DNA from: Ostreococcus lucimarinus | Lineage: Eukaryota | Length of the DNA stretch: 64,000 nucleotides | Assembly (NCBI GenBank): GCA_000092065.1 | Contig: CP000595.1 | Direction: 5' to 3' (one strand) | Part shown: positions 28,011 to 38,942 of the stretch, one piece after another | Layout of the letters: every line of letters begins with the position of its first letter | Position numbering within the stretch: position 1 is the stretch's first letter | Made by a program: the position numbers and the translations under genes | The notes under the pieces: generated by a model | What the model saw: the letters and a program-made list of their open reading frames with translations, nothing else | Told to the model about the DNA's origin: nothing | Database searches by the model: none

Positions 28011-29582
28011 CTACGGCGCGCGGCGCCTGTCACTTTCGACGCGCGAGAACGCGGCAGCCTCAAACATTTTGATGACGTCGGATGGAATCTTCATTCCGTC
28101 CGGTGGTGGTGGAAGGAGCATCGGATCGTCGCAACACGCCGCGTACGCGCGCGCATACGCCGGTACTAAGTCCTCAGGCCACTTGAAATCTCGAAGACGT
28201 GACTCGATTGTTTCCGCGAGCGACGTATGAAATGCCATTTCTTTGTCAGACGCGGCGACGACGGCGGCTTTCTCTCGTGCGCGCACCAATCGACGCGCGC
28301 GCGCGTACGTGGCGTCGTAGTACAAACGCGCGTGCACCTTCTCTTTCGCACAATCTGATTCTTCGACGACAGGCCTCTCCGCAGGTTCTTCACTCGCAAC
28401 ATACACGCGCATGCGAAGATCAATTGCGCACACGGGTTGTTTTTCCTCAACCAAGGCGAGCCAAAACGAACGCTTCGCCCCTCCGTCGCGCTCCGTGAGT
28501 AATCTATGAACGGAAATCTTGGCACATCCCATGAAGAGCGACTTACCTTGGCGATTCAAGTGGTAGACACGTATCGCGACCACATCCGCGGCGGACGATT
28601 TGCGTTCCGTCGCGACGGTGAATTTCATCGCGTGATTCCACACAGGATCCTTCGTGCCCGCGCGTGGTGCCGTGGCGTGGAGTTGTGTTCCGCACATCAC
28701 CTCGGCGTACGCGTTACTCGTGCCAAAGACGTCGCCGGCGCTGAGGTCCATCGCACGCGCCGCAATGATTCGCAAGTCAGTGCGCGCGTCGTCTTTGAAG
28801 TATGCGATCACGTTCATCTTACCCAGACACTCGAGTTTTGTCGTCAATTGTCGCCATTCTACGTCGCGAATCGCAGCGTGAGTATCCATCGGTCGCGCCG
28901 CCTTGATTTCACGCACGCGCACCGCGTATTGACTCAGTAAATCGTCGTCGCCCACCATGTCATGATCCCACAACTCAAACGTCACGTACGATTCTGAGCC
29001 ACGATCTACGCGCTCAAACTCAAAGGTCTCGTTCCACACCGGGTCGAGCGTTTTCTTCACCGTCTCCGTTCTGAACGAGTCCTTCCCGGCATGATGGCCG
29101 AACGCATCGCCGCTCGCGACGGCTAACGCCTTAATTTTGGCCGTCGACTCGTTGACGCGATGTAACTTGACAACGACGTACGGGTCAGACAGCCCCGATA
29201 AATCGGATCCCTTGATCCCGTGCGCGCTCACCACCTTCACTCGCAACATCCCATCGATTTCGTGGTCAAAGTAACACTGAAATTTTAGTCGCCCTAGTTT
29301 CTCCGGCACGCGAAGCTCGTGATTCAACTCGATCCACCGCGCCGGTTCGCCCGCCTCGATCGTCGGCACGCGCCTCGCCAAAATCTCACACGTTCCCAGC
29401 GCGTATCGCATCTTTACGTCGTTCGTCTCCCCTTCTTTCGCGCCGCTTCCCCGAAACACGCTCGCTCGCACGACGTCGTTTAAAGAAACATCCGTCACGT
29501 ACACCTCAAACGTCGTCTTCACCGCCGCCTCACGCTGCGCATCCCGAACGACGCCGCGACTCTTTTGTCGCTGTCGCTCCAT
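28011..29582 (-). CDS. Multiple C2-domain protein
   Basis: Two C2-like domains (LRVKVVSAHGIKGSDLSGLSDPYVVVKL...DPVWNETFEF; DLSAGDVFGTSNAYAEVMCG...KDPVWNH). The track ORF starts with GTG at 29762. The first ATG is at 29582, although the 60 codons upstream look coding. A 5' exon is possible. Confidence 0.6.
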   Translation of the reverse strand: MERQRQKSRGVVRDAQREAAVKTTFEVYVTDVSLNDVVRASVFRGSGAKEGETNDVKMRYALGTCEILARRVPTIEAGEPARWIELNHELRVPEKLGRLKFQCYFDHEIDGMLRVKVVSAHGIKGSDLSGLSDPYVVVKLHRVNESTAKIKALAVASGDAFGHHAGKDSFRTETVKKTLDPVWNETFEFERVDRGSESYVTFELWDHDMVGDDDLLSQYAVRVREIKAARPMDTHAAIRDVEWRQLTTKLECLGKMNVIAYFKDDARTDLRIIAARAMDLSAGDVFGTSNAYAEVMCGTQLHATAPRAGTKDPVWNHAMKFTVATERKSSAADVVAIRVYHLNRQGKSLFMGCAKISVHRLLTERDGGAKRSFWLALVEEKQPVCAIDLRMRVYVASEEPAERPVVEESDCAKEKVHARLYYDATYARARRLVRAREKAAVVAASDKEMAFHTSLAETIESRLRDFKWPEDLVPAYARAYAACCDDPMLLPPPPDGMKIPSDVIKMFEAAAFSRVESDRRRAP

Positions 29583-30157
29583 CGCGTACCGCACCGGCGC
29601 CTCTTCGTACGACGTCGCGAATCCGTGCGAGCTCGCGTTCGCCTTCTCGCTCGGCTCGACGTTCACCTGCGAGTGACGCTCGCGCGCGCGCTCGGTCAGC
29701 GATACGAACGACGGCGACGCGACGACGACGCGACCGCGCGATGCGAGCGCGCGAGATTCCACGACGCGTCGCGACGCACCGTCGCGTGCACGCGGTGGAC
29801 GTCGCGCGGTAGACCGCGCGCACCGTCGATTTCGACAACCAACTTTAACGGTTTCGGACGGTCGCGCGCCGCTCTCGCCTTGGCGCGCGCGCGGCTCTCG
29901 TCGACGCCGCGCGCGATGACGCGTCCGACGGCGTCGTACTGGATCTCGCGCGACGGCGCCGACGACGGCGCGGCGTCGACGTCGGACATCGCGCGCGGCG
30001 ACGCGAGGCGACGTGTGCGGCGGAAACGCTCGCGGAGGAAACGCTCGACGCGCGAGAAACGCGTCGCGGAGAAAAGAACCTGGGGAATGAATCGACTACG
30101 CGAACGGCGCGCCTCGCGCCGCGATCTACGGGCTACGCGACGCGGTGCGCCGCCGCT

Positions 30158-31867: not shown

Positions 31868-32243
31868 CGCGGCGATCGGGCGACGCGCGGGGTCGTTTCG
31901 AGTCGACGCGCGTCGACGCGCGGCGGCGACGGCGCGGCGGCGGCGCGGCGGCGGCGCGGCGGCGCGCGCGCGGCGCGGCGACGACGCGCGGTCTCGCGCG
32001 TTCGCGCGTCGGCGTTCGCATCCTTAGCATTCGTAGCGTTTTCGTGTCCATCACGGACGACTTTAAAGATCGCGCTCGCGTCGTCGTCGCGTCGTCGTCG
32101 TCGTCCCGCTCGCCGCGCTCGGGACGCCTCGTCTGATCGACGTCACGCTCGCCGCCATCGCGTCATTCGCCGACGCGCGTGTGGACGAGCGTCCGACGCG
32201 CGCCTCGTCGAACGAACGCGCGAGAACGCGCGCGCTCGACGCG

Positions 32244-34145
32244 ATGCGCGCGATGGTCGCGCGTCCCGCGCGCGCGACGACGACGACGACGACGACGCGA
32301 CGCGCGCGCGCGGATAAGATGAAAAGCGCGCCGATGACGACGACGACGCGCGCGCACGTCGTCGCGCGCGCGATGCCGGCGCGAGCGCGCGCGGGTGATG
32401 GTGCGCGATGCGCGGTGGTCGCGACGCGGGACGCGGGACGCGGTGACGGCGTCAAGGCGCGCGCGGCGTCGAGCGAGGATGAGGGAAAAGACGCGAGCGA
32501 CGGCGGCGAGTCGGGGGACTCGGAACTCACGCAAGGGATGATCGACGCGATGCAAGCGCGACGGGCGCGTAAGATGGCGAAACAAGAGAGTAAGGGACCG
32601 GCGGGATTGGAGGACGTGAACCCGGTGAATCTCGGACGGAAGTCGCGGGCGGCGTTTGAGAACGTCTTCAAGCAGCTGACGTCGTTGACGTCGTTTCAAA
32701 AGTCCACGGCGCCGACGAACGCGAGAGAGTTTGATCAGGTCTACGACGCGGATTTGCTCAGTGGGAGCTCGGTGGGGGAGTTCGAGACGCCGAACGCGAA
32801 GTTTACGACGGTGTTGGTCACGGGGGCGACGGGGCGCATAGGTCGCGTTTTGATTCGCAAGCTCTTGTTGCGCGGATACACAGTCAAGGCGCTCGTGCGT
32901 CGCCAGGAAGACGTCGAGAAGCTTCCGGGTTTGGTACAAGTCATCGTCGGGGACGTCGGGGAGAAAGAAGTGATCAAAAATGCCATGATTGGCGTGAACA
33001 AGGTGATTTACTGCGCGAGCGCAAAAACCTCCGTCACGAGCGACTTGTACAACGTCGCCGACCAAGGTGTGAAGAACGTGGTATCGTGCATGCAAGACTA
33101 CTATCACATGCTCGCTTCCCGTCGCGCCGGTCGCAGCGCCAAGTCCAAGGTGATGTTGACCAACTTCAAGCACCCGACGGCGTACGAGGCGTGGGACGTC
33201 GAAGAGATCGAAGCCGACGCCGGCGCCGGCGCCGACGGGCGATGGGCCGCCGCGGCGGAGATGCAGCGTGTGAACTTCGATCCGCTCTACCCCGAAGACG
33301 AGGACAAACCTTTCGAATTCGCGACGTTCAACGGTTTCATCACCTCTCGTACGGGTAAGGCTGAAGTGAGCTCAAACGTCGAAGGTTTGCAAGCCGACGT
33401 CGACTTTTCAGCCAAGGAAGGTTTGTTGTTCCGTTTGAAGGGCGACGGGAAGCGCTACAGCGTGATGCTCACGCAGGACGATGGTTCCAAGTTCAGATTT
33501 TCGTTCAACACCACTGGGGGATGGCAAGTCATTCGTATGCCGTTTCACAAATTCGTCAGTGAAGGGAAAACTTCTTGGGGAGACGACGGCGACGCCATTC
33601 TCGACTTGACGAGAATCGAGAAGATTGGCGTTCGCTTCGATGCGAGAAAGAACCAACGCGAGACGACGATGTCAGACGTGATGAGTGGGAACAATAACAT
33701 GTTCAACTTGACGCTCGAGTACGTCAAGGCGATTCCCAAGGGCGAGGAACCCGATGTCATTTTGGTTTCGTGCTTCGGCGCCGGTTTGGAAGAGGGCGAA
33801 GAAAAGGAACGTATCCTGAAGATAAAGCGTGACGGTGAACGCGTGCTGCGCAACTCTGGTGTAGGATACACCATCGTTCGCCCGGGTGAGCTCGTCGAAG
33901 AGGCTGGTGGGGGCAAGGCGTTGGTTTTCGATCAAACCGAACGCATCAACACGCCGATTTCTTGCGCCGACGTCTCCGACGTCTGCGTCAAGGCGATGCA
34001 CGACGAAGAGGCGCGTAACAAGAGCTTCGATGTCGGCTACGAGTACGAAAGCGAGCAAGCCGAGTACGAGCTGATCACCCAAGTCAAAGGCAAATCCGAC
34101 AACTACCTCACTCCGGCGTTGAAGGTGCTCGAAAAGAACTCGTAA
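32244..34145 (+). CDS. NAD(P)-binding Rossmann-fold (NmrA/SDR-like) protein with a C-terminal CIA30-like domain, presequence-bearing
   Basis: VLVTGATGRIGRVLIRKLLLRGYTV (TGxxGxxG), and later FNTTGGWQVIRMPFHKF. The track start is GTG; the first ATG is at 32244. Confidence 0.65.
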   Translation: MRAMVARPARATTTTTTTRRARADKMKSAPMTTTTRAHVVARAMPARARAGDGARCAVVATRDAGRGDGVKARAASSEDEGKDASDGGESGDSELTQGMIDAMQARRARKMAKQESKGPAGLEDVNPVNLGRKSRAAFENVFKQLTSLTSFQKSTAPTNAREFDQVYDADLLSGSSVGEFETPNAKFTTVLVTGATGRIGRVLIRKLLLRGYTVKALVRRQEDVEKLPGLVQVIVGDVGEKEVIKNAMIGVNKVIYCASAKTSVTSDLYNVADQGVKNVVSCMQDYYHMLASRRAGRSAKSKVMLTNFKHPTAYEAWDVEEIEADAGAGADGRWAAAAEMQRVNFDPLYPEDEDKPFEFATFNGFITSRTGKAEVSSNVEGLQADVDFSAKEGLLFRLKGDGKRYSVMLTQDDGSKFRFSFNTTGGWQVIRMPFHKFVSEGKTSWGDDGDAILDLTRIEKIGVRFDARKNQRETTMSDVMSGNNNMFNLTLEYVKAIPKGEEPDVILVSCFGAGLEEGEEKERILKIKRDGERVLRNSGVGYTIVRPGELVEEAGGGKALVFDQTERINTPISCADVSDVCVKAMHDEEARNKSFDVGYEYESEQAEYELITQVKGKSDNYLTPALKVLEKNS

Positions 34146-34191
34146 TCCCAGTCGCGGCGAGACGAAATACTAGACCACGCGCGGTGCTGTA

Positions 34192-34196
34192 TGTAA
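34192..34196 (+). terminator. TGTAA poly(A) signal
   Basis: The pentamer lies 47 nt downstream of the 34145 stop, in an 83-bp convergent spacer. Confidence 0.4.
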
Positions 34197-34228
34197 ACGA
34201 CGAACATTCATTCATTCATATGTTCTAC

Positions 34229-35176
34229 CTAAACCTGCGCCGCCTCCTTCAGCAGAGGCCTGACTATGGAGAGTAGCGTCTCGTTGTCCGAGGCGTAGCG
34301 TTGGAGTAACCGCTCCGTCGCCGCGTCCGCGAGCTCCAACGCGCCGTTATCTTTAAACTCTTCCCCCCTCTTCGACGACATGATGCGTAACTTCTTCACA
34401 CATAAAATGACGGCGTAAAGCGCGCGAATATCTTTGCCATTGGTGAAATCAATCGCCGCGGCGAAGTGATGCTTCGCGTCGCGAATGTTTTCCTCGCCGC
34501 CCATGGTGTAGAGCACCTCACCCATTCGCCTGTGCGAGTTGGGATCGAACGGTCTCGCGCACAGCACTTCTTCGTAACAAAACAACGCCTTCTCGTACTC
34601 ACACCGCTCGGCGTACAGCTTCCCAAGCTCCAGCCACGCCTCGTCGTCCGCGCCAAAGTCTTCCAGATACTCCGTCAACGCCGCGACGGCGCCCGGGACG
34701 TCGCCCTCGCTCTTCGCGCACGCCACGCGCATTTTTCGCAACCTCGCCTCGCCTTTATTTTCCTCCAACATTTCATCCAACATCTTTCGCGCCTCCGCGG
34801 CGCCGCCCTCCTTTCCGAGCGTCGTCGCCGCTCGCAGCGCGCGCGCTCGAATCGACGTCGTCCCGAACCGTCCCTCCAGCGCCTCGCACAGCTTTTCCGC
34901 CGTCTCCGCGTCGCCGTAATCCAGCGCCGCGTACACCGCGCGTTCACATCGCGCGTGCGCTTCCCTCGCGCGCGCGCCGCTCCCTCGCAGCGACGCGAGC
35001 GACGTCGACGAGTTCGCGAACGCCTTCGCCGCGCGCGCCCACGACGCGATCTCTTTCCCACCGCCGCGCCGCGTCTGTTGCGCCGCGTGCGCCGGCGCGT
35101 CGTCGCGCGACGCGCGCGCGTGCGTCGACGCCGCTCGCCGCGCGTCGTCCAGCGCGCGCTCGTGCTCGCGCGTCAT
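34229..35176 (-). CDS. TPR-repeat protein, possibly EMC2 (TTC35)-like
   Basis: TPR repeats along the whole length (CEYEKALFCYEEVL...HRRMGEVLYTMGG). About 315 aa from the ATG at 35176. The EMC2 assignment is tentative. Confidence 0.5.
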   Translation of the reverse strand: MTREHERALDDARRAASTHARASRDDAPAHAAQQTRRGGGKEIASWARAAKAFANSSTSLASLRGSGARAREAHARCERAVYAALDYGDAETAEKLCEALEGRFGTTSIRARALRAATTLGKEGGAAEARKMLDEMLEENKGEARLRKMRVACAKSEGDVPGAVAALTEYLEDFGADDEAWLELGKLYAERCEYEKALFCYEEVLCARPFDPNSHRRMGEVLYTMGGEENIRDAKHHFAAAIDFTNGKDIRALYAVILCVKKLRIMSSKRGEEFKDNGALELADAATERLLQRYASDNETLLSIVRPLLKEAAQV

Positions 35177-35695
35177 GCGCGTCGCCGAGTCGCGTCGATC
35201 GCCTCGCCCGATGCGCGCGCCATCCGTCGCGCCGCACACACCGACGCGACGCGATCGCCTCGCGCCGTCGCGCGCCGTCGATCGAGCGACCGCGCGCCGA
35301 TCGCGGCGCCGCATGAAGCGCGTCGCTGACGCGCTCGCGCGCCGCGCGGCGCGACGGACGCGCGACGGGGTTTCGACGAGCCTCGGCGAATCCGCGCGCG
35401 CGCGCGCCGCGTCGACGATGTGCGTCGCGCTTCGTCGACGACGCGATTCGCGCGTGTTGAATTCGAGCGTCGCGACCGCGACGCGCGGCCGCGGCGACGC
35501 GTCGACCGATCCCAGCCGACGATCGAGCGACTGACCTCGCGCGCGTCTCGCGCGCGTCTCGCGCAGGACGAAGATATTGGACGGGAGCGTGTGGTGCGTC
35601 GATCGCGACGCCGAGCGATGCCGACGACGAAACGATGCGTTATTTGTAGTCGCGCGCGACTGACGACGACGACGACGACGACGACGCGCTCGCAG

Positions 35696-36050
35696 GCACT
35701 TGGAGTCGCGCTCGGGCGAAAAGGTCGGCGAGGACGAGCTCGGAAACGCGTACTACGAAAACAAATCGTATCAACAGGGACGCTCGCGATGGGTGGTGCC
35801 CAAAAACCTCGACGATTACTCCGCCGCGAACATTCCGCGCGAGTGGCACGGTTGGTTGCATCACATCAACGACGAACCGGGTCTTCCGAACGCGACGACG
35901 CCGATTTACGAAGACGCGTCGCCGTACTTCGTCGCCGGGAAATCGAACGCGGGGACGTACTTACCGAAGGGGCACTTTCTCCGTCAGCGTCCGTCCGACG
36001 CGGGCGTGACGCGGAGTTGGGCCAAGTACCAACCGTGGTCACCGCCGTGA
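35696..36050 (+). CDS. NDUFA12: NADH dehydrogenase (complex I) subunit NDUFA12 / B17.2. Main exon, preceded by a candidate exon 1 at 35635..35645.
   Basis: VGEDELGNAYYEN...RSRWVV...REWHGWLHHINDEPG aligns with NDUFA12. The open frame has no ATG (the track start is TTG at 35700). The ATG at 35635 plus the GT(35646)...AG(35695) would give MRYLHLESRSGEKVG... Confidence 0.7.
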
Positions 36051-36172
36051 GTAGATTCGTCCGTTTGTAACACCGTGTTTCGTCTTTCGTCGCCTCGCCC
36101 GGCGCGCGCTCGCGGCGCGGGGATCGTCGCCGATTCCACGTCGCGCCGAATCGTCAAACGTCGACGCGCGAC

Positions 36173-38044
36173 ATGGGCCGTCGAATCGACGCGAACGGTG
36201 GCGCGTCGAACGGTGAAGCCGACGCGTCGCGCGCGTCCCCTCGCGCGCGCGACGACGCGGTGTCGCGCCTCGACGCCGCGACGGTATCGCGCAGTGGGAC
36301 GCCGCCGCTCCCGCCGCTCGCGCCGTCGCAATACGAAGCGATGCTGCGCGCGCAGTACGCCGCGGGGGTGAGCCCGGGATCTGGGTTCGTCCCGGACGAC
36401 GCGCGAGCGTCGGATGAGGAGGACGGCGACGACGAAGGCGCGAGGCGGCGGTCGCGGGGACGAGCGAGCGGGACGGAGGAAGACGCGAAGACGAAGACGA
36501 GGGACGAAAACACCGCGGAGGGGCGCGCGGGGGGGCTGGTGAGGGATTTGATGGGAGGGTACGGCGACGACGCGCGCGGTACGGTGAGCTCGAGCGCGAC
36601 GGCGGGAGCAGAGGGTCGACGCGAGGCGAGCGCGGCGCGAGAGGCGGCGACGAGCGGATTGCAGACGGTGATGGTTGGTAAACCGCCGCGTGGGGTTGGA
36701 AACTACGATAAACCGAACGGCGACGATATCGAACCCGTCAAAGCGGTGCCGGTGTCGACGTCGGGGCGTGCCAAGGTGGGATGGGTGCGCATCAACACTC
36801 TGGGCGTTGTCAACCGGTTGTCGATGGAGAAGACAAAAATCGCGACTTTGCTCAGGGTACCGCTGCGGGATTTGCGCGTGCTCGAACCGACGACGGCAGA
36901 TTCGTACTCCGCCGCGGTACTGTGTCGTGAGCGCGCGATCGTGGTGAATTTGGAGCAGATTAAAGTGTTGATCACCGCCGAAGAAGTCATCATGACGGAT
37001 TCGCAAACGAGCACGGTGACGCACTTTTTGCCCGAGCTCCAAACCCGGTTGTTGCGACGAAAAAGACTGCGCGAGAGAGACCCATCGCTATCGACGCTAC
37101 CGCTGAATTTATCTGCCGCAGACTTGACGAATGTGATGGAAGGTCAAGCGGAGAAGGCGAAGAGCGAAACATCGCCCGAAAAAGAATTACGCCAGGCGCA
37201 GCCCACCACGGATGAGTTCCCGTTTGAATTCGTAGCCCTGGAAGTTGCGCTGGAGATGGTGTGTAACACCCTGGAGGTAGAGGCGAACAAAGTCGAGCTC
37301 GACGCCAAGCCCGCGCTCGAGGCGCTTCGTAAGCGGGTCGACAACGTCAACCTCGAACGCGTGCGAAGGATGAAGACGAGACTCGTGCGCGTCGCTGGTC
37401 GCGTGAGCAAGGTTCGAGAAGAGATTCAACGTTATTTAGACGATGATTCCGACATGCGTGACATGTATTTGACGCGTAAATCGAAACAACAGTCGGAATC
37501 ACTCAGAAGGGAGGGCTCCGTGACGTCGCCTCCGCCCAACGGCGCGGATGGCGGCCAACGAGGCGCGACGGCGCACTATCAGCTCGAGCACGCATTGAGT
37601 GCGTCGAGCGGACGATCTCCGCTCGGTGTGCACGGCGTGCACACACAAAGTGGCGAGGCACACAACGCATACTTCGACGCCTACGATGAAGACAAGGATC
37701 TACAAGAGCTCGAGGATTTACTCGAAACGTACTTTACCCACGTCGATTCCACCCACCGCTCGCTCAACGGTTTGAACGAGTACATCGATGACTTGGAGGA
37801 TTTGATCGAAATTGAACTCGATTCCCAGCGTAACCAGCTCATCAAACTCGAGCTCATCCTGACCACCGCGACGCTGTGCCTGACGTGCTTCTCCGTCGTC
37901 GTCGGCATCTTTGGCATGAACATCAAAAACAACGTCGAAAATGAGCATGGCATGTTTTTGTTGGTCGTCTTGCTCGGTTCAGCGGCGACGATCGGCATGT
38001 TCATCATCCTGTTGCGCGTGTGCCGATATTACAGGCTCTTCTAG
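36173..38044 (+). CDS. MRS2: MRS2/CorA-family magnesium transporter
   Basis: C-terminal GMN motif in two TM helices (GIFGMNIKNN). Coiled-coil stalk. Long Asp/Arg/Gly-rich N-terminal extension. ATG at 36173. Confidence 0.85.
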   Translation: MGRRIDANGGASNGEADASRASPRARDDAVSRLDAATVSRSGTPPLPPLAPSQYEAMLRAQYAAGVSPGSGFVPDDARASDEEDGDDEGARRRSRGRASGTEEDAKTKTRDENTAEGRAGGLVRDLMGGYGDDARGTVSSSATAGAEGRREASAAREAATSGLQTVMVGKPPRGVGNYDKPNGDDIEPVKAVPVSTSGRAKVGWVRINTLGVVNRLSMEKTKIATLLRVPLRDLRVLEPTTADSYSAAVLCRERAIVVNLEQIKVLITAEEVIMTDSQTSTVTHFLPELQTRLLRRKRLRERDPSLSTLPLNLSAADLTNVMEGQAEKAKSETSPEKELRQAQPTTDEFPFEFVALEVALEMVCNTLEVEANKVELDAKPALEALRKRVDNVNLERVRRMKTRLVRVAGRVSKVREEIQRYLDDDSDMRDMYLTRKSKQQSESLRREGSVTSPPPNGADGGQRGATAHYQLEHALSASSGRSPLGVHGVHTQSGEAHNAYFDAYDEDKDLQELEDLLETYFTHVDSTHRSLNGLNEYIDDLEDLIEIELDSQRNQLIKLELILTTATLCLTCFSVVVGIFGMNIKNNVENEHGMFLLVVLLGSAATIGMFIILLRVCRYYRLF

Positions 38045-38117
38045 CGACCGCCCTTTCTTGCAATTAAATCATCCAAACACCGGGAGCCGCTCGCGACGCC
38101 GCACTCCATGGTGTGGC

Positions 38118-38942
38118 ATGGCGCCGGTCGATTTCCGCGCCGTGCGCGCGAAAGCGTTGATGCGCGAGTCAACGACGACGACGACGACGACGACGCGCGA
38201 CGACACCCTTTCGTTCGCCGCGCGCGGTGGATTCGTCGACACAGATGTCGATGACGAGATTTCATCTTCATCGTCGCCCGACGTCGCGAAACGCGTCCCG
38301 GGGTTGGCGTATTGTCGTGAATTCATCGGTGCGCGCGACGCCGAGTTCGTCGAAAGCGCGTTACTGCGCGAGCCCGCGGCGTGGTGGACGAAAGGACGCG
38401 GTCGAAGGGTGATGAACGCGGGCGGGACGTCGCCTTCGAGGTTGTATCGCGAAGGCGATGACGAGGCGATTCCGACGTACCTGCGCGAACTCGTGGAGGT
38501 TTTGGTACGACGGAAAGCGAGCGAGCGCGCGGCGAATCACGTGCTGGTGAATGAATACGACGCTGATGGATTCATTTCGCCGCATTCAGATGGGGACGTG
38601 TACGCGCCCGATGTGCAAATTTTGACGCTACGGTCGAGCGCGTTGATTGAGTTTTGGCCGGCAGAGGGCGCGACGGCGGGAGACTTTGATGAGTGTGACA
38701 ATATCGATGCACCGCGGCCGGTCGTGAGCGTGTTGCTTGAACCTAGAAGCTTGTTGATGTACCGCGGCGAAGCGTATCGCTTACGTCACGGTATTCGCGC
38801 GCGAGTAAAAGACGTAGTGGCTGCAGAAACGGCGAACGCACGCGAATTAGGATTAGAAATAGGCGACGTCGTCGAACGTAATCCCGCGGGGCGGCTCAGC
38901 GTGGTGTTCGTGCGAAAGTACGCGGAGAGAAGATGTGAGTAA
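38118..38942 (+). CDS. AlkB-like 2OG-Fe(II) oxygenase (tentative)
   Basis: HVLVNEYDADGFISPHSDG (HxD facial triad) and a distal RHGI. The track ORF overlaps the MRS2 3' end; the start was moved to the MAPVDF ATG. Confidence 0.5.
   Translation: MAPVDFRAVRAKALMRESTTTTTTTTRDDTLSFAARGGFVDTDVDDEISSSSSPDVAKRVPGLAYCREFIGARDAEFVESALLREPAAWWTKGRGRRVMNAGGTSPSRLYREGDDEAIPTYLRELVEVLVRRKASERAANHVLVNEYDADGFISPHSDGDVYAPDVQILTLRSSALIEFWPAEGATAGDFDECDNIDAPRPVVSVLLEPRSLLMYRGEAYRLRHGIRARVKDVVAAETANARELGLEIGDVVERNPAGRLSVVFVRKYAERRCE

What the first reader, a model, noticed from the sequence alone, without database searches (positions are those of the whole stretch)
35635..36050. NDUFA12 gene has no in-frame ATG, and a 50-nt GT-AG mini-intron would supply one
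The NDUFA12/B17.2 homology (VGEDELGNAYYEN...RWVV...EWHGWLH) begins in a frame that is closed by TGA at 35661..35663, so the frame is open only from 35664, with no ATG before the conserved core. The track ORF begins with TTG. The ATG at 35635 is out of frame (atg cgt tat ttg tag). A GT donor at 35646 and the acceptor cgctcgcag at 35694..35695 would remove 50 nt containing a ctgac branch-point-like motif. Splicing would join ATG CGT TAT TT|G CAC TTG GAG... to give MRYLHLESRSGEKVGEDEL... in frame. This would be one of the smallest spliceosomal introns, and it is (gac)8-rich. Alternatively the first exon lies further upstream.
Basis: partly seen in the sequence, partly recalled or inferred. Interest (0 to 1): 0.55.

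Follow-up and report, generated by a model that had tools for sequence, protein, structure and literature searches.

The report
Ordinary split NDUFA12 gene, mini-intron refuted
The complex I subunit gene NDUFA12 of the tiny green alga Ostreococcus lucimarinus seems to lack a start codon only because its first two exons (one just 27 bases long) lie upstream behind two ordinary introns; the proposed 50-base mini-intron is a chance arrangement inside the second intron.

Summary
The NDUFA12 frame is closed by TGA 35661-63. The ATG at 35635 is out of frame, and GT 35646 to AG 35695 would remove 50 nt and restore the frame. But 28-34% of comparable stretches offer such an arrangement by chance.

Orthologues carry a conserved N-terminus, AST[LM]-TKILDGSV[WF]-HLE. 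The window encodes it in two upstream pieces, each followed by GTGCGTCG. The supported model has three exons:
- exon 1, 35313..35419
- intron 1, 35420..35566 (147 nt)
- microexon, 35567..35593 (27 nt)
- intron 2, 35594..35695 (102 nt)
- exon 3, 35696..36050

The product is 162 aa. Both introns match the published consensus for O. lucimarinus introns outside chromosome 2: donor GTGCGTG, branch site GACTGAC(G) 29 nt before CGCAG.

Comparative support:
- Four unnamed related lineages have both introns at the same positions.
- In one of them a spliced contig lacks both introns exactly.
- A Micromonas-like contig shares intron 2.
- O. tauri-like contigs are intronless and encode the same peptide without interruption.

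The donor and the ATG are wrong, and the ATG is intronic. The GenBank model XP_001421665.1 is a 5'-partial protein. This is a routine gene-model correction of low interest.

The parts
35313..35419 (+). Exon 1 coding part (107 nt). It encodes MKRVADALARRAARRTRDGVSTSLGESARARAAST plus the first two bases (AT) of the Met-36 codon.
   Evidence: The frame-0 translation ends ...ARARAASTM and is followed directly by GTGCGT. AST[LM] is conserved just before TKILDG in every full-length orthologue. The DNA pattern 'Ala-Ser-Thr + split Leu/Met codon + GTGCG' occurs once in the 64 kb, at 35409. Choosing ATG 35313 as the start is an inference. It rests on N-terminal length, on M[KLR]R[AV]... similarity to the orthologues, and on the 136-nt gap to the likely EMC2 start at 35176.
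35420..35566 (+). Intron 1 (147 nt). Donor GTGCGTC at 35420-26, branch motif GACTGACC at 35529-36 (branch A at 35534), acceptor CGCAG at 35562-66. It contains an in-frame TGA at 35532-34.
   Evidence: The signals match the published consensus for O. lucimarinus introns outside chromosome 2: GTGCGTG, ACTGAC, CGCAG, with a branch-to-AG distance of 20-35 (PMC2483917). There are 29 nt between ACTGAC and AG, and this is the first AG after the branch site. An intron lies at the same position in L001, L009/L010 and P0079, and the spliced contig L007 lacks it exactly.
35567..35593 (+). Microexon (27 nt): G ACG AAG ATA TTG GAC GGG AGC GTG TG. It completes Met-36, encodes TKILDGSV and supplies the first two bases of the Trp codon.
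   Evidence: The motif TK[IL]LDG[SG]V[WF] occurs once in the six-frame translation of the window, at 35568. A 27-nt exon of the same frame and position, flanked by cag| and |gtgcg, is present in L001, L008, L009, L010, L011 and L012, and is base-identical to the window's in L008, L009 and L010. The peptide aligns to the N-terminal segment of Polytomella and Arabidopsis/Brassica B17.2 in solved complex I structures.
35594..35695 (+). Intron 2 (102 nt). Donor GTGCGTC at 35594-600, branch motif GACTGACG at 35658-65 (branch A at 35663), (GAC)8 at 35662-85, acceptor CGCAG at 35691-95.
   Evidence: The consensus fit is the same as for intron 1, again with 29 nt between ACTGAC and the first downstream AG. 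The position and phase (TG|G of the Trp codon) are shared with L001, L009, L011, L012 and P0079, and with the Micromonas-like contig L016. In the sister lineage the intron is removed exactly in the spliced contig L007.
35696..36050 (+). Exon 3 (355 nt including stop TGA 36048-50). It supplies the last base of Trp-45, then HLESRSGEKVGEDELGNAYYEN...KYQPWSPP, which is the whole Pfam NDUFA12 domain.
   Evidence: Pfam PF05071 matches at E about 5e-20. PDB hits are to NDUFA12/B17.2 chains at E=3e-18 to 1e-14, against E=1e-4 for NDUFAF2. The sequence is identical to GenBank XP_001421665.1, 'predicted protein, partial [Ostreococcus lucimarinus CCE9901]'.
35635..35647 (+). Both lie inside intron 2 and have no supported function.
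   Evidence: The arrangement is expected by chance in 28-34% of comparable stretches. It is not conserved in the orthologous introns. The donor GTAGTC does not fit the species consensus.

Best explanation
The window is Ostreococcus lucimarinus nuclear DNA, from CCE9901 or a near-identical strain. Its NDUFA12 (B17.2) gene, a subunit of mitochondrial complex I, has three exons: 35313..35419, 35567..35593 (a 27-nt microexon) and 35696..36050. They are separated by two canonical U2-type introns of 147 and 102 nt.

Splicing joins ...AAST-M|TKILDGSVW|HLESRSGEKVGEDEL... into a 162-aa protein that starts at ATG 35313. The apparent lack of a start codon comes from reading only the last exon. The ATG at 35635 and the GT at 35646 are chance features inside intron 2.

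Shown here: the positions and signals of both introns, their conservation in related lineages, and exact removal of both in a spliced contig of a sister lineage.

Inferred: that O. lucimarinus itself splices this way, since no transcript of this species was available, and that translation starts at 35313 rather than at the split Met-36 codon.
For: 1. Orthologues carry AST[LM]TKILDGSV[WF]HLE.R.G..VG.D upstream of the NDUFA12 core.
2. The window encodes AAST+AT|GTGCGT at 35409-35425 and TKILDGSVW at 35568-35593|GTGCGT. Each motif is unique in the 64 kb.
3. The three pieces join in frame into a 489-nt CDS with no stop.
4. Both introns have GTGCGTC donors, GACTGAC(C/G) branch motifs, 29 nt to the first AG, and CGCAG acceptors. 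This is the EST-derived consensus for O. lucimarinus introns outside chromosome 2: GTGCGTG at 4.8 bits, ACTGAC in 87%, CGCAG, and a branch-to-AG distance of 20-35 (PMC2483917).
5. The genomic contig L001 and the contig L007 of the same lineage align as three colinear blocks. L007 lacks exactly the two introns and keeps the 27-nt exon. MERC sequences P0018 and P0063 show the same spliced peptide.
6. L009/L010, L011, L012 and P0079 have the same two introns. L016, which is Micromonas-like, has intron 2 at the identical codon phase.
7. O. tauri-like contigs L004-6, and also L002/L003 and L014/L015, encode the same junction peptides without interruption. L002/L003 and L014/L015 also keep the upstream neighbours, the NAD-binding/CIA30 gene and EMC2; L004-6 keep MRS2 and the 2OG oxygenase gene downstream.
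8. The GenBank model for this gene is flagged partial. It starts at 35688, 8 nt inside intron 2.
Against: No transcript of O. lucimarinus itself was found.
- The exact 162-aa product is not in the 15-billion-protein collection.
- Homology searches returned no spliced protein closer than 73% identity.

I did not verify that L007 is cDNA-derived. An intronless allele in that population is formally possible.

The start codon is not proven. In-frame ATGs also exist at 35175 and 35211, and the O. tauri GenBank model starts at the Met homologous to the split Met-36.
Confidence: 0.92

Rival explanations
1. A 50-nt GT-AG mini-intron (35646..35695) joins an 11-nt first coding exon starting at ATG 35635 to exon 3, giving MRYLHLESRSGEK... 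(121 aa).
For: The arithmetic is right, and the branch site and acceptor are real.
Against: - The arrangement is expected by chance in 28-34% of comparable stretches.
- The donor GTAGTC matches the species consensus GTGCGT at 0 of 4 variable positions.
- It would discard the conserved TKILDGSVW peptide, which sits 52 nt upstream in the correct phase in front of a perfect donor.
- Orthologous introns in L001, L009 and L012 contain no ATG.
- Orthologues have Trp, or Phe in the intronless lineages, before H/Q-L, not Leu.
Confidence: 0.02
2. Same splicing, different start. Translation begins at the Met-36 codon that is assembled by splicing (AT from 35418-19 plus G at 35567). Exon 1 would then be essentially 5' UTR and the product 127 aa (MTKILDGSVWHLE...), as in the O. 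tauri GenBank model.
For: O. tauri XP_003083747.1 and OUS45628.1 are annotated as starting at the homologous Met (MTKILDGSVFHLE..., 123 aa).
Against: - In L001, L009, L002, L014, P0079 and L016 this residue is Leu, so translation there must start upstream.
- The three residues before it (AST) are conserved in every lineage.
- The upstream ORFs all begin with a similar M[KLR]R[AV]... Arg/Ala-rich segment of 30-42 aa.
- ATG 35313 would be an upstream in-frame start that a scanning ribosome meets first.
Confidence: 0.06
3. There is no splicing. The gene is translated from the non-ATG codon TTG 35700 as a 116-aa protein, or it is a 5'-truncated pseudogene.
For: Bacterial-style gene callers produce exactly this 116-aa ORF on many contigs.
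Against: - This is a eukaryotic nuclear gene.
- The upstream exons are conserved with intact consensus splice signals in several lineages.
- The spliced form was observed in a sister lineage.
- The exon 3 ORF is intact, and the same 116-aa ORF, or one differing at a single residue, recurs on hundreds of metagenome contigs.
Confidence: 0.01

Closest known systems
EST-confirmed introns of Ostreococcus lucimarinus outside chromosome 2 (Irimia & Roy 2008, PMC2483917)
   Same: Donor GTGCGT(G/C). Branch motif GACTGAC(G/C). 29 nt to the first AG, within the 20-35 nt peak. Acceptor CGCAG. Lengths of 102 and 147 nt sit near the published median predicted-intron length for this species (111 bp) and below its means (168 and 188 bp).
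   Different: Position +7 is C rather than the consensus G. The two introns bracket an unusually short 27-nt exon. Neither intron is in the public GenBank gene model, which is partial.
NDUFA12 / B17.2 subunit of mitochondrial complex I (Pfam PF05071; e.g. Arabidopsis/Brassica 7A23 chain U, Polytomella 7ARC/7ARD chain q)
   Same: Full-length domain match. Conserved VGxDxxGNxYYE, RWV and EWHGWLH motifs. The C-terminal YQxW(S/T)P is present. The N-terminal ILDGSVW segment aligns to IVDGNL and LPDGNLL of the green-lineage structures.
   Different: It has an Arg/Ala-rich N-terminal extension of about 35 aa that resembles a presequence and is not seen in the aligned part of the solved chains. No function was tested.
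Chromosome-2 type short introns of Ostreococcus, and very short introns elsewhere
   Different: The locus has normal GC of about 62-65%. The signals are of the non-chromosome-2 type. The proposed donor fits neither GTGCGTG nor GTRNGT.

Membership tests
NDUFA12 (PF05071) complex I subunit | Significant full-length match to the Pfam NDUFA12 profile above the gathering score | tested here: met
   72.6-72.8 bits against a cut-off of 23, covering profile positions 1-98 of 98.
NDUFA12 (PF05071) complex I subunit | Closer to the structural subunit NDUFA12 than to its paralogue, the assembly factor NDUFAF2 | tested here: met
   Best PDB hits are NDUFA12/B17.2 chains at E=3e-18 to 1e-14. NDUFAF2 (8ca5_t) scores only E=1e-4.
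NDUFA12 (PF05071) complex I subunit | Physical presence in assembled complex I | not testable with these tools
   This needs proteomics of O. lucimarinus mitochondria.
Canonical U2-type intron of the O. lucimarinus non-chromosome-2 class (introns 1 and 2) | 5' splice site GTGCGTG | tested here: met
   GTGCGTC at 35420 and at 35594, matching 6 of 7 positions and all of +1 to +6.
Canonical U2-type intron of the O. lucimarinus non-chromosome-2 class (introns 1 and 2) | ACTGAC branch motif 20-35 nt before a CGCAG acceptor | tested here: met
   GACTGACC at 35529-36 and GACTGACG at 35658-65. Each is 29 nt before the first downstream AG, and both acceptors read CGCAG.
Canonical U2-type intron of the O. 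lucimarinus non-chromosome-2 class (introns 1 and 2) | Removal from mature mRNA | tested here: inconclusive
   Exact removal is seen in a sister lineage (L007 against L001). No O. lucimarinus transcript was available.
   The donor is GTAGTCG, which matches 0 of 4 at positions +3 to +6.
Microexon | An internal exon of 30 nt or less, or 51 nt or less depending on the definition, flanked by two spliced introns and conserved | tested here: met
   It is 27 nt, flanked by cag| and |gtgcg. It is the same in four further unnamed lineages, and it is retained in the spliced contig L007.
Introner elements (repeated intron families, as in Micromonas) | Many near-identical copies of the intron sequence elsewhere in the genome | tested here: not met
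   blastn of both introns against the 64-kb window gave only short (GAC)n and CG-rich low-complexity hits, and the two introns do not match each other. Only this window was searched, not the whole genome.
U12-type (minor spliceosome) intron | Donor (A/G)TATCCTT and branch site TCCTTAAC close to the 3' end | tested here: not met
   The donors are GTGCGTCG and the branch motifs ACTGAC. The U12 consensus is taken from established knowledge.

The most novel reading that the evidence does not exclude
Intron 1 is a lineage-specific gain within Ostreococcus. It split off a 27-nt microexon next to the older intron 2, which Micromonas-like lineages share. Both introns were later lost together in the O. 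tauri branch. If so, this small gene would record intron gain, microexon creation and concerted loss in one of the most compact, intron-poor eukaryotic genomes.
Probability: 0.35. Interest if true: 0.3.

Novelty: new member of a known kind. Interest (0 to 1): 0.12.

Why it matters
The main value is a correction. The public O. lucimarinus NDUFA12 model (XP_001421665.1) is 5'-partial. The full 162-aa protein, with its Arg/Ala-rich N-terminus and the conserved TKILDGSVW segment, can now be written down.

The case also shows that the strict Ostreococcus splice consensus (GTGCGTG ... ACTGAC ... CGCAG) combined with orthologue N-termini resolves "missing start codon" cases. A free search for ATG, GT and AG succeeds by chance about one time in three.

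The presence or absence of the two introns among Mamiellales lineages, and the 27-nt microexon, are small useful data points for work on intron gain and loss. Nothing here challenges current knowledge.

Tried and rejected
1. I scanned JGI metagenome contigs for any junction onto exon 3 other than the genomic one, using pattern BNGCACTTGGAGTCGCGCTCGGGCG. There were 0 hits, so there is no transcript evidence for either model in O. lucimarinus.
2. An exact look-up of the 162-aa product and a homology search with it found no same-species spliced protein.
3. Introner or repeat origin of the introns: blastn against the window gave only low-complexity matches.
4. A candidate GTGCGT...CTGAC...CAG at 28916..28741 on the minus strand lies inside a continuous C2-domain ORF, so I dismissed it as chance.
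5. I tried to validate the third candidate intron (29779..29667, minus strand) by a Pfam domain spanning the junction. No domain covers it, so it remains unconfirmed.
6. The metagenome contig L008 looked like a strain with a different 5' end. The breakpoint sits at a shared 20-nt GC-rich motif, so I treat it as a probable chimeric assembly.
7. An NDUFAF2 identity was considered and rejected on PDB E-values.

Full report
**Observation.**
- The NDUFA12-homologous frame is closed by TGA 35661-63, and the mechanical ORF begins at TTG 35700.
- ATG 35635 is out of frame (atg cgt tat ttg tag).
- GT 35646 to AG 35695 spans 50 nt and contains ACTGAC and (GAC)8.
- Removing it gives MRYLHLESRSGEKVGEDEL... 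in frame.
- Pfam confirms an NDUFA12 domain at E about 5e-20.

Such an arrangement is cheap, however. In 28% of shuffles of the 102 nt upstream of the acceptor, and in 34% of all AG-ending 102-mers on the + strand of the window, some ATG, in-frame GT and AG combination gives an open join to this exon.

**What the homologues say.** A protein search returned Mamiellales-type NDUFA12 sequences. Many carry a conserved N-terminal extension...AST[LM]TKILDGSV[WF]HLE.R.G..VG.D... (P0006, P0011-P0014, P0018).

- The frame-0 translation reads ...ARARAAST-M and is followed immediately by GTGCGT at 35420.
- TKILDGSVW lies at 35568-35593 and is followed immediately by GTGCGT at 35594.

Joining 35313..35419, 35567..35593 and 35696..36050 gives a 489-nt CDS with no stop and a 162-aa protein. 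That protein aligns along its whole length with the orthologues. The peptide motif TK[IL]LDG[SG]V[WF] occurs once in all six frames of the 64 kb. The DNA pattern Ala-Ser-Thr + split Leu/Met codon + GTGCG also occurs once.

**Splice signals.** Both introns begin GTGCGTCG. Both carry GACTGAC(C/G) with exactly 29 nt to the first downstream AG, and both end in CGCAG.

The window is O. lucimarinus. GenBank XP_001421665.1/ABO99958.1, [quoted passage not shown], is identical to exon 3 and starts at 35688, 8 nt inside intron 2.

Irimia & Roy (PMC2483917) characterised EST-confirmed introns of this species outside chromosome 2.
- The 5' consensus is the atypical GTGCGTG, at 4.8 bits.
- ACTGAC is present in 87% and GACTGACG in 66.5%.
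- The acceptor preference is CGCAG.
- The branch-to-AG distance is 20-35 nt.

The two introns proposed here are textbook members of this class. Intron lengths of 102 and 147 nt are ordinary. The EST survey reports a mean of 188 bp and a minimum of 26 bp (PMC2367439), so even a real 50-nt intron would not be a record.

**Comparative test at the DNA level.**
- The genomic contig L001 (a sister lineage) shows the same structure...ACGCT|GTGCGT...CAG|GACGAAGATATTAGACGGGAGCGTGTG|GTGCGT...TAG|GCACCTCGAG.
- Contig L007 of the same lineage aligns to L001 in three colinear blocks. It lacks exactly the two introns while keeping the 27-nt exon. The simplest reading is that L007 is a transcript-derived assembly. 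MERC sequences P0018 and P0063 show the same spliced peptide.
- L009/L010, L011 (the closest relative, 80-82% aa identity), L012 and P0079 also have the 27-nt exon bracketed by cag| and |gtgcg.
- A Micromonas-like contig, L016, has AASTLTQILDGSVW uninterrupted, followed by an intron at the identical codon phase: TG|GTGCGTG...ACTGAC...TCGCAG|G. Intron 2 is therefore old, and intron 1 is restricted to some Ostreococcus lineages.
- O. tauri-like contigs (L004-6; their cluster contains XP_003083747.1), and also L002/L003 and L014/L015, are intronless. They encode AST[LM]TK[IL]LDG.VFHL without interruption. L002/L003 and L014/L015 also share the upstream neighbours, NAD-binding/CIA30 and EMC2 on the opposite strand; MRS2 and a 2OG oxygenase gene follow downstream in L002 and L004-6.
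- Intron 2 of L001, L009 and L012 contains no ATG at all.

**Identity of the protein.** PDB sequence hits are to NDUFA12/B17.2 chains of algal, plant and animal complex I, at E=3e-18 to 1e-9. NDUFAF2 scores only 1e-4. The microexon-encoded ILDGSVW aligns to IVDGNL and LPDGNLL of Polytomella and Arabidopsis/Brassica B17.2.

**Start codon.** I infer ATG 35313 for four reasons.
- It gives an N-terminus of the same length and character (M[KLR]R[AV]..., Arg/Ala-rich, 30-42 aa before TKILDG) as the orthologues.
- It leaves 136 nt to the likely EMC2 start on the opposite strand (Met at 35176, TPR_EMC2 domain). The same gap is 124-190 nt in related loci.
- Residue 36 is Leu in most lineages.
- The AST just before it is conserved throughout.

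The alternative is initiation at the spliced-together Met-36, as annotated in O. tauri. I keep it as a minor rival.

**What is missing.** I found no O. lucimarinus transcript.
- The 162-aa sequence is absent from the protein collection.
- No close spliced homologue turned up.
- A scan of JGI metagenome contigs for any non-genomic junction onto exon 3 found nothing.

That null result is neutral between the models. The decision rests on conservation, on splice-signal fit, and on the spliced orthologous contig.

**Evolutionary note (inference).** A neighbour-joining tree of the exon 3 region (about 115 aa, no support values) places the two-intron lineage L012/P0007 outside a group that contains both the intronless O. 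tauri/L002/L014 clade and the two-intron O. lucimarinus clade. This suggests that intron 1 was gained in an Ostreococcus ancestor and that both introns were lost together in the O. tauri branch. The introns are not introner-like repeats within this window.

**Verdict.** The real gene has three exons including a 27-nt microexon, and the public model is merely 5'-incomplete. This is a routine annotation fix of low interest.

Noticed in passing
L008:1-1998 versus window 35322: The JGI metagenome contig L008 is 99.6% identical to window 35322..38537, but its first 1998 nt match nothing in the window. The breakpoint lies 9 nt after ATG 35313, at a shared GTCGCYGACGCGCTCGCGCGCC motif. It is probably a chimeric assembly, though a structural variant is not excluded.
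   Followed up: partly
window 29779..29667 (- strand): A candidate 113-nt intron (GTGCGTCGCG ... CGCTGAC ... CTCGCAG) joins an ORF starting at ATG 29989 in frame to the 583-aa C2-domain ORF (28011..29762). No Pfam domain spans the junction, so it is unconfirmed.
   Followed up: partly
L004-L006 (O. tauri-like contigs); P0064, P0065: The O. tauri GenBank NDUFA12 models (XP_003083747.1 and OUS45628.1, 123 aa) start at MTKILDG. The contigs carry an uninterrupted 154-aa ORF with the conserved AAST upstream, so the annotated start may be about 31 codons too far downstream.
   Followed up: partly
P0087 (Micromonas pusilla XP_003063301.1); L016:1580-1990: The M. pusilla model lacks the conserved TKILDGSVW segment. 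A Micromonas-like contig shows that segment in an exon upstream of a GTGCGTG...TCGCAG intron, so the M. pusilla N-terminus is probably mis-modelled as well.
   Followed up: no
window 32181..38044 and loci L002, L009, L014: The gene order is conserved across the longer Ostreococcus-type contigs: NAD-binding+CIA30-domain protein, EMC2 (opposite strand), NDUFA12, MRS2-like Mg transporter. A protein with a CIA30 (complex I assembly factor) domain thus sits two genes from a complex I subunit. In the Micromonas-like L016, EMC2 lies on the same strand as NDUFA12.
   Followed up: no
window 35174-35177 and 35312-35315: Two CATG palindromes give an ATG on both strands at the same spot. Bacterial-style ORF listing therefore produces long overlapping ORFs on both strands across the EMC2/NDUFA12 divergent intergenic region (the 361-aa and 119-aa ORFs).
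   Followed up: partly
window 35662-35685; L011 intron 2, 3' end: The spacer between branch site and acceptor in intron 2 is an AG-free (GAC)8 run. The closest relative, L011, has (GAC)4 in the same place. Similar (GAC)n runs are scattered through the window.
   Followed up: no
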